Shown: positions 31,701 through 34,700, counted from the first letter of the stretch. The stretch is DNA of 64,000 nucleotides from Escherichia coli (GCF_030013205.1 NZ_CP122648.1); one strand, 5' to 3'. Numbers: made by a program.

Positions 31701-34700
31701 TTTGCTGTCGAGAACTTTACGCAGTTCAGCGATGTTTTTCACTGCCTGCTGGTTCGCGCCAATAATCACATCACCTTTCTTCAGGCCGATCTGCGCAGCC
31801 GGAGTGCCCGTTTTCACGTTGTTCACTACCACGCCCTGATCTTTGCCTTTGTTGCTCATCTCAGCGCCTTCAATGCCGTTGAAGATGGAGCTGGAATCAA
31901 CCTGATTCTGGCTGCTCTGCTGCAGTTCCAGATTCACGTTGACCTGCTTACCGTCGCGCAGCAAGCCCAGGGTCAGTTTGCTGCCCACCGGCATAGTACC
32001 CACCTGAGCACGCAGGGCGGCAAAACTGCTGATTGGCTTACCGTTCAGTGAGGTGATCACATCTCCCGCTTTAATGCCCGCTTTTGCAGCGGAGGAATTA
32101 GGCAGAACCTGGCTTACGAAAGCACCGCGCTGGGCGTCAACTTTCATCGCTTTCGCCAGTTCGGAGTTCAGCTCAGTCCCCATAATACCCAGCTCACCGC
32201 GTTTCACCTGGCCGTATTCCACCATCTGCGAGGTCAGGTTTTTCACCATGTTACTCGGGATAGCAAAACCGATACCGATGTTGCCGCCGTCCGGTGCGAG
32301 GATCGCGGTGTTGATACCGATCAGTTCGCCGTTCAGGTTAACCAACGCACCACCGGAGTTACCACGGTTGATCGCTGCATCGGTCTGGATGAAGTTTTCG
32401 TAGTTTTCAGCATTCAGGCCGCTACGCCCCAGCGCAGAGACAATCCCGGAAGTTACCGTCTCGCCCAGACCAAATGGGTTACCAATCGCTACGGTGTAAT
32501 CACCCACGCGCAGTGCATCAGAATCCGCCATCTTAATTGCGGTCAGATTTTTCGGGTTCTGGATCTGGATCAGCGCGATATCAGAGCGCGGATCTTTGCC
32601 AACCATCTTCGCGTCGAACTTACGACCATCGCTCAGCTGGACTTTAATCACCGTCGCGTTATCAACAACGTGGTTGTTGGTGACAACATAGCCTTTATCG
32701 GCATCAATGATGACGCCGGAACCCAGCGCCATGAATTTCTGTTGCTGGCCGCCGCCATTACCGCCCTGGCCCCCCTGGCAGAACGGAGAGCTCTGGAACG
32801 GAGAACCTTCCTGGCAGAACGGAGAGCTCTGGAACGGAGAACCTTCCTGGCAGAACGGAGAATCATCACCGAAGAACTGCTGGAAATTACGCGGCATACG
32901 CGGCGTATTAACGGTTGTGCTACCTTCTACGTTAATGCTGACCACTGAAGGCATCACCTTTTCGAGCATCGGTGCAAGGCTTGGCATCTGCTGGGCTGTC
33001 GTTGCTGAAGAAGTCTCAGCCGCCGTTGCAGAGAGCGGAGATAACGCCAAACCTAAACTCAGAGCCAGTGCACTCAGTGCTAATGTGGTTTTTTTCATGT
33101 ATTTCAGTCTCGATTAACAGATAACGCAAAATTGCTGTGTTCTTCAGATTCGTTTTATAGCGCGAAGTTCCGAACTAAAGTTTCTGCAAAAGGTAAAAAT
33201 TTATTGTTCGTCTTTACAAAAGCCTGGTTATTGTTCTACGGCCATCAGACGTCGGTATTCATCCCAGGCATAGAGGTCGGTCATACCGCTGATATAATCC
33301 TGCAGCAGGCGGCAACGGTAATAATATTCCCATAGCGGAAACTCAGGAGAATCTGACGGTAATTTACTGACAGCCTCGACATAGGCCAGCCGATGGCGCG
33401 TCGAGAGTTTGTTGAATAAGCGCGATTCAATAGGGAAACGTTTCACCCGTTCTTTTTCTACCAGTTCAGTAAAGTCTGATAACGACAGGCTTAATAAAGG
33501 ACGATAAATCTCTAATAATCCGCTAATGACCCGATAGCCCTGCAATTCAAGCTGCTCGACATCTGGATGGCTAAACACATGTTTTACAGCGACATTTTTA
33601 TATAGCTTAAGAAGATCGCTGCATTCGCTGGCATCTTCCAATAATGCATGATTAAACGTTCCGGCGAAAATCGCAGGCAGATTATCAATAAATCGTTGTG
33701 CCGCGTAGGGTACCAGTTTATTTAGGGTGTTTACCCGTAAATACATAAAAAACTGATCTTCCGTACTGCGGCTTAAACTATTTGAGCGTGATTTTTCCCA
33801 GGCATTTTCAACCACCAGCGAAAAGAGCGAACCTTTCTCATGCTGGCCCCACGCCTCGTGCAAATGATGATAAAGCTGCTCAACGGTAAATATTCTTTTC
33901 TCTACCGCATCTTCAAGATCTGCCACACAATAGGAGATGTCGTCGGCAGCTTCCATAATCCACGTTAATGGAAAACGACTGTAAAGCGCCAAATTAAGTT
34001 CTTTACGCAACCGGGCAATATAGGCTTCCTCAGAAAGATAATAACCCGGCTTTTTCATTAAATAGTGATGTGTCTCAGGCGTTTCACCACGCCACCACGC
34101 CGGACGAGTATATTTTAAAATACCGCCAACCTGTGCCCAGGTGAGATTCATCCGCATCAATGTATGCACCAGACGAATGCCTTGTGCATTCCCCTCAAAA
34201 TGACATAAGTCCTGACGTATTTTGCGCCGCAGCTCGTTAAGCGGTTCTTCCCCGTCCCGTAAACGTAGTGCTGCCACGCTGCAGCGATCGTCAGTCAGAG
34301 GCTGGCTTTCGGCATCTTCCGGGTGCAAACGCTGGCGAAACCAGTCATTTATCGCCGCTTCGCCAAAATGACCAAACGGCGGATTGCCGATATCGTGCAT
34401 AAGGCATGACATCTCAACAATGCTTTCAAAGGGGCCGGTCAGTTCTTCCAGGCCGTATGCTTCCAGCAATTTAAGCTCTTTCAGACGGCTTAAAATTTCT
34501 TTGGCGATGTAGCGCCCCACCTGCTGGACTTCCATCGAGTGGGTAAGACGCGTGCGCACGGCGGCATTGCGCTCCAGTGGAAAAACCTGGGTCTTTTGTT
34601 GCAGACGACGAATTGCCGGAGAGTTGATGATACGCCCGCGATCGCTCTCGAAGATCCGCAGAATCTCATGTTCGGTTTTAACGCCCTGCGGTGAACGGTA

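What the first reader, a model, noticed from the sequence alone, without database searches (positions are those of the whole stretch)
32775..32861. 36-bp in-frame tandem duplication in degP expands the SPFCQ-repeat region of the LA loop
The sequence ctggcagaacggagagctctggaacggagaaccttc is present as two perfect adjacent copies plus a 15-bp partial copy. On the coding strand each copy encodes EGSPFQSSPFCQ, giving a 486-aa DegP rather than the 474 aa I recall for K-12. The insertion falls in the long regulatory LA loop that gates the protease and oligomer state, so it could alter DegP activation. The segment behaves like a small VNTR within an essential stress protease.
Basis: partly seen in the sequence, partly recalled or inferred. 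Interest (0 to 1): 0.5.

Follow-up and report, generated by a model that had tools for sequence, protein, structure and literature searches.

The report
Rare 36-bp duplication in degP
One pig E. coli strain carries a recent, in-frame 36-bp tandem duplication in the stress protease gene degP that adds 12 amino acids and a third cysteine to the enzyme's inhibitory, redox-sensitive LA loop; it is a real but rare copying slip whose effect on the enzyme is untested.

Summary
Window 32774-32861 is a perfect period-36 array (2.4 copies) inside degP on the minus strand (31638-33098). It gives a 486-aa DegP instead of the usual 474 aa.

On the coding strand the common allele is P-X-P, with P = TCTCCGTTCTGCCAG (SPFCQ) and X = 21 bp. 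The window has P-X-P-X-P.

The window is E. coli ETEC4079 (pig, Belgium). It is the only one of 5,426 complete E. coli genomes with this form. Sixteen clonal relatives are 100.0 % identical over 25 kb but exactly 36 bp shorter, so the event is very recent.

The same 486-aa protein occurs on 7-8 public contigs. Three retrieved loci differ from the window and from each other at 5-21 synonymous degP sites, which points to recurrent origin. The reciprocal 36-bp deletion (462 aa, one Cys) also exists on at least 9 haplotypes. No 3-unit allele was found.

The best explanation is misalignment between the two 15-bp direct repeats during replication.

The insert lies in the crystallographically unresolved tip of the LA loop. 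It duplicates residues that make inhibitory contacts and adds Cys81 next to the Cys57-Cys69 redox switch. A functional effect is plausible but untested. The finding is real but of modest interest.

The parts
31638..33098 (-). degP (htrA) coding sequence, 486 codons plus stop. The signal peptide is codons 1-26 (33021-33098). The catalytic triad His/Asp/Ser lies at 32670-32672, 32580-32582 and 32355-32357.
   Evidence: ORF. PDB DegP chains match at E = 4e-283. Annotated as degP, WP_282842962.1, in NZ_CP122643.1. Triad residues checked.
32748..32909 (-). Region encoding the LA loop (mature residues 38-79 of the standard protein). It is 54 residues here instead of 42.
   Evidence: Loop limits from PMC4339722, mapped to the window.
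32774..32861 (-). Perfect tandem array, period 36, 2.4 copies. On the coding strand it reads P-X-P-X-P and encodes SPFCQ-EGSPFQS-SPFCQ-EGSPFQS-SPFCQ.
32811..32846 (-). One 36-bp unit (EGSPFQSSPFCQ), the extra DNA relative to the common allele. Which of the two identical units is 'new' cannot be told.
   Evidence: Alignment with single-copy strain E308 and with clonal relatives that are 36 bp shorter.
32775..32789 (-). Third copy of the 15-bp direct repeat P (TCTCCGTTCTGCCAG, SPFCQ). It contains the codon of the extra cysteine, Cys81 in mature numbering (32778-32780).
32811..32825 (-). Second copy of P, containing the Cys69 codon (32814-32816).
32847..32861 (-). First copy of P, containing the Cys57 codon (32850-32852).
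32756..32774 (-). Adjacent 9-bp micro-repeat (GCCAGGGNG x2, encoding QGGQGG). It is the site of a separate +9-bp length variant (477 aa) seen in other strains. The window has the standard form here.

Best explanation
This is a spontaneous, very recent tandem duplication produced by misalignment between two 15-bp direct repeats that already exist in every E. coli degP.

In the common allele, the motif SPFCQ is encoded twice by the identical string TCTCCGTTCTGCCAG (P), and the two copies are separated by 21 bp (X). The likely cause is strand slippage during replication, or unequal sister-strand exchange. If the nascent second P pairs with the first P on the template, the 36-bp P-X segment is copied again and P-X-P becomes P-X-P-X-P. 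The opposite misalignment deletes P-X and leaves a single P. Both products are in frame.

The duplication lengthens the LA loop of DegP from 42 to 54 residues. It repeats residues 59-70 (EGSPFQSSPFCQ) and adds a third cysteine next to the Cys57-Cys69 disulfide.

The expanded array now has about 52 bp of repeated sequence. It should therefore collapse back far more readily than it formed, which would keep such alleles young and rare.

The consequence for the protein is inferred, not shown. The loop tip that docks on loops L1/L2 of the opposite trimer and carries the redox switch is altered. The most likely outcome is a mildly destabilised resting hexamer, an ambiguous or incomplete disulfide pattern, or both. 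That would make the allele neutral to slightly deleterious rather than adaptive.
For: Anatomy. The duplicated unit is bounded exactly by the pre-existing 15-bp repeat. The repeat occurs nowhere else in the window.

Recency. ETEC4079 is the only carrier among 5,426 complete genomes, and the window is identical to it (0 mismatches in 6,107 bp). Sixteen clonal pig-ETEC/O139:H1-type genomes are 100.0 % identical over 25 kb but span 24,964 bp instead of 25,000 bp.

Recurrence. The exact 486-aa protein is on 7-8 contigs of other assemblies. L004, L005 and L006 carry the identical duplication. They differ from the window and from each other at 5-21 synonymous degP sites, with 26 variable columns.

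Reciprocal product. The precise P-to-P 36-bp deletion (462 aa, one Cys) is present on 10-23 contigs and at least 9 synonymous haplotypes.

Constraint. The core SPFCQxGSPFQSSPFCQ with two cysteines is kept in 126 of 128 DegP records from Escherichia, Citrobacter, Enterobacter and Lelliottia. The two exceptions are the alleles I looked up myself.

Functional context from the literature. The LA loop is residues 38-79. DsbA makes the Cys57-Cys69 bond. Phe56, Phe63, Pro67, Phe68, Cys69 and Gln70 make inhibitory contacts. Loss of the disulfide raises Vmax from 0.44 to 1.13 per min per enzyme and eases dodecamer formation (PMC4339722). The disulfide acts as a redox sensor in vivo (bioRxiv 10.1101/2025.11.03.686187).
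Against: No reads were available, so the duplication in ETEC4079 itself rests on one deposited assembly.

Recurrence is inferred from synonymous haplotypes of only four carriers. A very short gene-conversion tract carrying the duplication between lineages is not formally excluded.

Counts from the large collection are rough. Assemblers with k below about 52, such as Logan's, would collapse the duplication but not the deletion. The 486-aa form is indeed absent from Logan sources.

Nothing measured here bears on enzyme activity, oligomer state or disulfide pattern. The slippage mechanism and the expected instability follow from general knowledge of repeat-mediated misalignment, not from an experiment on this locus.
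Confidence: 0.8

Rival explanations
1. The duplication is an assembly or sequencing artefact of the ETEC4079 genome and does not exist in the strain.
For: It is a singleton among 5,426 complete genomes. It is absent from 16 otherwise identical relatives. No reads could be examined.
Against: The identical in-frame allele was assembled independently in at least three other genomes with different degP haplotypes. The reciprocal deletion also exists, which shows that the site really does misalign. A perfect 36-bp tandem copy is not a typical long-read or polishing error, and it preserves the reading frame.
Confidence: 0.05
2. The repeat is a contingency locus. Gain and loss of the 36-bp unit toggles DegP between 1, 2 and 3 loop cysteines, and selection uses this to tune redox gating and basal protease activity in particular hosts.
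For: All three copy-number states exist in nature and each arose on several backgrounds. The unit carries exactly one cysteine of a disulfide shown to act as a redox switch. The carrier is a gut pathogen exposed to reducing conditions.
Against: Variant alleles are extremely rare. Among complete genomes there is one duplication and no deletion. The one duplication that could be compared with close relatives, in ETEC4079, sits at a tip of the tree. No 3-unit allele exists. The DNA repeat is explained simply by the conserved peptide repeat. The two-cysteine core is invariant across genera, which argues for purifying selection rather than switching.
Confidence: 0.07
3. ETEC4079 acquired the 486-aa allele from another lineage by homologous recombination, rather than generating it de novo.
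For: The same protein exists in unrelated backgrounds, so donors are available.
Against: The 25 kb around the site is 100.0 % identical to clonal relatives apart from the 36 bp. The known carriers differ from the window at 13-21 degP sites, the nearest only about 90 bp downstream of the array. An imported tract would therefore have to be shorter than about 130 bp on that side.
Confidence: 0.03

Closest known systems
E. coli K-12 DegP/HtrA (474 aa; structures 1KY9, 3OU0, 6JJO and others)
   Same: The sequence is identical outside the insert. The signal peptide, the His105/Asp135/Ser210 triad, the trypsin-like domain and the two PDZ domains are all present.
   Different: The LA loop has 12 extra residues (EGSPFQSSPFCQ), so it is 54 residues rather than 42. 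There are three cysteines (57, 69, 81) instead of two, and five SPF motifs instead of three.
Engineered LA-loop and cysteine-less DegP variants (C57A/C69A; Phe63 and other LA-loop mutants; Koper 2015, Figaj 2014)
   Same: The same loop segment is altered. Those mutants show that disturbing this segment loosens the resting hexamer and raises protease activity.
   Different: Those variants are substitutions or removals made in the laboratory. This is a natural insertion that duplicates the contact residues and adds an unpaired cysteine, and its phenotype has not been measured.
Natural 462-aa DegP allele (reciprocal 36-bp deletion)
   Same: It uses the same two 15-bp repeats and the same 36-bp unit, and it is also rare and recurrent.
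   Different: It removes a unit instead of adding one. That leaves a single cysteine, so no intramolecular disulfide is possible. It was seen mostly in gut metagenome and Logan assemblies and in no complete genome.
Repeat-mediated misalignment mutations (slipped-strand mispairing between short direct repeats; my own knowledge of the field, e.g. Lovett's work on E. coli)
   Same: The unit is bounded by pre-existing direct repeats. The junctions fall exactly at the repeats, and both duplication and deletion products are observed.
   Different: No mutation rate and no recA dependence has been measured for this locus.
DegQ and non-enterobacterial HtrAs
   Same: They share the protease-PDZ architecture.
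   Different: Their LA loops are shorter and lack the disulfide (PMC4339722). They give no precedent for a three-cysteine loop.

Membership tests
DegP/HtrA periplasmic serine protease (MEROPS S1C) | Trypsin-like protease domain followed by two PDZ domains | tested here: met
   Precomputed Pfam hits Trypsin/Trypsin_2 plus two sets of PDZ hits on the exact protein. Full-length match to DegP structures at E = 4e-283.
DegP/HtrA periplasmic serine protease (MEROPS S1C) | Catalytic triad His105, Asp135, Ser210 (mature numbering) | tested here: met
   All three residues are present at the shifted positions.
DegP/HtrA periplasmic serine protease (MEROPS S1C) | N-terminal signal peptide, with mature N-terminus AETSS | tested here: met
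   The sequence MKKTTLALSALALSLGLALSPLSATA/AETSS is identical to K-12. PDB chains start at residue 27.
Enterobacterial DegP LA loop (redox-gated type) | Exactly two cysteines (57, 69) in one SPFCQ-x-GSPFQSSPFCQ core forming one intramolecular disulfide | tested here: not met
   The window protein has three cysteines and a doubled core. 126 of 128 compared DegP records have two. Which disulfide forms cannot be tested with these tools.
Tandem duplication by misalignment of short direct repeats | The ancestral sequence carries direct repeats that flank the duplicated segment, and the junction falls at the repeat | tested here: met
   The common allele is P-X-P with perfect 15-bp P copies, and the window is P-X-P-X-P.
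Tandem duplication by misalignment of short direct repeats | The reciprocal deletion product occurs at the same repeats | tested here: met
   A 462-aa allele with the exact P-to-P deletion is found on at least 9 haplotypes.
Tandem duplication by misalignment of short direct repeats | Independent recurrence on different backgrounds | tested here: met
   Four carriers differ at 5-21 synonymous sites in degP. Clonal relatives of the window strain lack the duplication.
VNTR / contingency locus | Copy number differs among strains | tested here: met
   Alleles with 0.4, 1.4 and 2.4 units are all present in public data.
VNTR / contingency locus | High polymorphism or hypermutability, with variants common in populations | tested here: not met
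   Among complete genomes there is 1 duplication, 0 deletions and 0 three-unit alleles. In the large collection the counts are 7 and 10 contigs against at least 1000 (capped) for the standard form.
VNTR / contingency locus | Copy-number change switches a phenotype that selection acts on | not testable with these tools
   This needs isogenic strains and enzyme assays.

The most novel reading that the evidence does not exclude
The P-X-P repeat in degP acts as a low-frequency mutational rheostat. Slippage yields DegP with one, two or three LA-loop cysteines. The one-cysteine form would be constitutively in the thiol state and hyperactive, the two-cysteine form redox-gated, and the three-cysteine form mis-gated or cross-linkable. 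That would give gut E. coli populations standing variation in envelope-protease activity that is selected under redox or host stress.
Probability: 0.06. Interest if true: 0.6.

Novelty: new variant of a known kind. Interest (0 to 1): 0.25.

Why it matters
DegP is a model for regulated proteolysis. Its LA loop, with the Cys57-Cys69 bond, is the element that keeps the resting hexamer inactive and senses redox stress.

Natural alleles add or remove exactly one cysteine-bearing unit: 486 aa in this window, and 462 aa elsewhere. They are ready-made probes for how loop length and cysteine number set the activation threshold. I found no description of them in the searchable literature.

In practice the finding is minor. 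It is a rare, probably transient polymorphism in one pig ETEC isolate, made by a textbook mutational mechanism, and no phenotype is known. It also shows that short-k assemblies would hide such alleles.

Tried and rejected
1. A plain megablast with 100-bp flanks could not separate the alleles. BLAST reported two overlapping pieces that covered 100 % of the query in every genome. I solved this with a short query and a strict E-value, so that only uninterrupted matches longer than the single-unit form could pass. Synthetic queries did the same job for the deletion and the 3-unit forms.

2. Exact search for the diagnostic junction found nothing in one genome per species (GTDB representatives) or in JGI metagenome contigs.

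3. I looked for a genus whose normal DegP has a three-cysteine or doubled core. There is none among 128 records. The 496-499-aa entries are upstream start-codon calls, and the differences between genera lie in the Gly/Gln-rich tail.

4. Modelling the loop on the hexamer was rejected. Asp52-Gly78 are unresolved in 1KY9, and a review states that much of the LA loop has never been visualised. The structure tool folds single chains and returns no coordinates, so cysteine pairing could not be read from it. I therefore did not run it.

5. A search for a paper on the ETEC40xx genomes found nothing. Figaj 2014 (PMC4140941) is not held.

6. The antisense ORFs that overlap the array (116 and 136 aa on the + strand) were dismissed as shadows of degP.

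Full report
**Observation.** On the + strand of the window, the 36-bp unit ctggcagaacggagagctctggaacggagaaccttc occupies 32775-32810 and again 32811-32846. A 15-bp partial copy follows at 32847-32861. One further base matches on the left, so period-36 self-identity runs from 32774 to 32861. Tandem Repeats Finder gives period 36, 2.4 copies, 100 % matches, no indels and score 176, the strongest tandem repeat in the whole window. The array lies in a 486-codon ORF on the minus strand, 31638-33098. Each full unit translates to EGSPFQSSPFCQ and the partial unit to SPFCQ.

**Identity of the gene.** The ORF matches solved E. coli DegP structures over its full length (E = 4e-283 and similar). The only alignment gap is 12 residues at this array, and the only substitution is the engineered S210A of the crystallised protein. 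The exact protein carries trypsin-like and double PDZ Pfam hits. Removing one unit gives a 474-aa sequence with cysteines at mature positions 57 and 69 and the triad His105/Asp135/Ser210. The neighbours are dgt upstream and cdaR downstream, as in other E. coli.

**Anatomy on the coding strand.** The common allele reads P-X-P, with P = TCTCCGTTCTGCCAG (SPFCQ) and X = GAAGGTTCTCCGTTCCAGAGC (EGSPFQS). The window reads P-X-P-X-P. The duplicated 36 bp is therefore bounded exactly by a perfect 15-bp direct repeat that is already present in the ordinary gene.

**How common it is.**
- 5,424 of 5,426 complete E. coli genomes contain this part of degP. In all 40 rows sampled across the ranking, the match spans 250 bp rather than 286 bp.
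- A short query with an E-value limit that only an uninterrupted two-unit match can pass found exactly one genome: NZ_CP122643.1, strain ETEC4079, from pig faeces in Belgium.
- The window is identical to that record over 6,107 bp, so it is almost certainly the source.
- Sixteen clonal relatives are 100.0 % identical over window 20000-44999 but span 24,964 bp instead of 25,000 bp. They include ETEC4067, 4069, 4070, 4071, 1748, 6333, 6334, 1701, 4068 and 4075, the O139:H1 strains W13-16 and P15-25, K_EC180, and EC556/571/581.
- The duplication therefore sits at a tip of this lineage.

**Occurrence elsewhere.**
- The exact 486-aa protein is on 7-8 contigs in the large public collection, under four NCBI protein accessions.
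- Three retrieved loci (L004-L006) have the identical duplication. Their degP genes differ from the window and from each other at 5-21 sites, all synonymous, with 26 variable columns. L004 differs from the window at 60 of 5,461 flanking positions.
- This pattern fits independent origins. Import into ETEC4079 by recombination is unlikely, because the nearest distinguishing SNP lies only about 90 bp from the array while 25 kb of flank matches the clone.
- The diagnostic junction (X-end + P + X-start) was absent from one genome per species and from JGI metagenome contigs.

**The reciprocal product.**
- Misalignment between the two P copies should also delete P-X. No complete genome has this deletion.
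- The predicted 462-aa protein is in the collection on 10-23 contigs.
- Ten retrieved loci show the exact P-to-P 36-bp deletion on at least 9 different synonymous haplotypes. Most come from human gut metagenomes and Logan assemblies.
- A three-unit (498-aa) allele is absent from both resources.
- Counts are only rough. Assemblers with k below about 52 would collapse the duplication but not the deletion, and the 486-aa form is indeed missing from Logan sources.

**Mechanism.** The following are shown: a duplication bounded by pre-existing direct repeats, a matching deletion at the same repeats, recurrence on different backgrounds, and a tip position in the window's own lineage. From these I infer replication slippage or unequal sister-strand exchange between the 15-bp repeats. 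This is the standard route to such rearrangements (general knowledge, not tested at this locus). I also infer that the expanded array, now with about 52 bp of repeated sequence, reverts faster than it forms. Together with purifying selection, this would explain why carriers are rare and young.

**What it does to the protein.**
- According to PMC4339722, the LA loop is mature residues 38-79, and DsbA makes a Cys57-Cys69 disulfide in its middle.
- Phe56, Phe68 and Cys69 touch loop L2 of the opposite trimer, and Gln70 touches loop L1. Phe and Pro residues at 46, 49, 50, 62, 63, 67 and 68 form a hydrophobic cluster between LA loops.
- Removing the disulfide raises Vmax from 0.44 to 1.13 per min per enzyme, lowers thermal stability and eases conversion to dodecamers.
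- A 2025 preprint reports that the disulfide works as a redox sensor in vivo.
- The duplication repeats residues 59-70, which include most of these contact residues. It lengthens the loop from 42 to 54 residues and adds Cys81.
- The segment lies wholly within Asp52-Gly78, which is unresolved in the 1KY9 hexamer. A 2024 review notes that much of the loop has never been visualised. Modelling on solved coordinates is therefore not possible.
- The two-cysteine core SPFCQxGSPFQSSPFCQ is kept in 126 of 128 DegP records from Escherichia, Citrobacter, Enterobacter and Lelliottia. Length differences between genera sit only in the Gly/Gln-rich tail after Cys69.
- My inference is that the insert perturbs a constrained element. 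The likely result is a looser resting hexamer, or an ambiguous disulfide pattern with one free thiol. No tool result here measures this.

**Rivals.**
- An assembly artefact in ETEC4079 cannot be excluded without reads. It is unlikely, because the same allele appears in independent assemblies and the site demonstrably misaligns.
- A contingency-locus reading, with 1, 2 or 3 cysteines as a tunable switch, is attractive. The extreme rarity of the variants and the invariance of the core across genera argue against it.
- Recombinational import is disfavoured by the flanking identity.

**Comparison and novelty.** The protein is a DegP by every family test applied, but it departs from the canonical enterobacterial LA loop in cysteine and repeat number. 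The mutational mechanism is textbook. I found no paper describing natural length alleles of this loop, although the protein is already deposited and annotated simply as DegP. I rate it a new variant of a known kind, of modest interest.

'VNTR' is literally true but overstated. 'Essential' holds only at high temperature. The proposed effect on activation remains an untested, literature-supported possibility.

Noticed in passing
window 61675-61718: A perfect 19-bp x 2.3 tandem repeat (GCGGAAGATAATTATCCAG) lies inside a 'fimbrial-like protein' gene. Ten complete E. coli genomes, including swine strain K_EC180, share the longer form at 99 % identity or more; 434 others are 19 bp shorter, and only 444 of 5,426 genomes have the gene at all. 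Because 19 is not a multiple of 3, the duplication should shift the frame. ORFs 61423-61704 and 61583-62083 look like the two halves of a disrupted gene.
   Followed up: partly
window 32756-32774 (standard form here); variant in L002 (NZ_CM129040.1, strain 401651): The 9-bp micro-repeat GCCAGGGNG next to the array is a second slippage site in the LA-loop coding region. Strain 401651 has a third copy (an extra QGG, 477 aa). It is the only complete genome with this form, but the protein is on 45 contigs in the large collection.
   Followed up: partly
L007-L016 (degP at 501-1889): The reciprocal 36-bp deletion allele of degP (462 aa) leaves a single LA-loop cysteine, so no disulfide is possible. 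It occurs on at least 9 synonymous haplotypes, mostly in human gut metagenome and Logan assemblies, and in no complete genome. Published cysteine-less mutants suggest it would be a constitutively 'reduced', more active DegP.
   Followed up: partly
protein P0117 (ENA metagenome contig, 454 aa): This DegP lacks 20 residues (IQIQNPKNLTAIKMADSDAL) between the similar strings SDIAL and SDAL. It is either another microhomology-mediated in-frame deletion or a metagenome assembly error.
   Followed up: no
proteins P0059, P0060, P0061, P0069, P0095, P0119: The DegP entries of 496-499 aa from Enterobacter/Lelliottia-like genomes are not loop expansions. They carry a 15-18-residue N-terminal extension (MYTAILRNLLIEIEN...) before the normal MKKTTLA start, which is most likely a mis-called start codon.
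   Followed up: no
window 30326-31501 (-): The mechanical ORF for cdaR starts at a GTG and gives 391 aa, whereas RefSeq annotates 385 aa in ETEC4079. This is an ordinary start-codon ambiguity.
   Followed up: no
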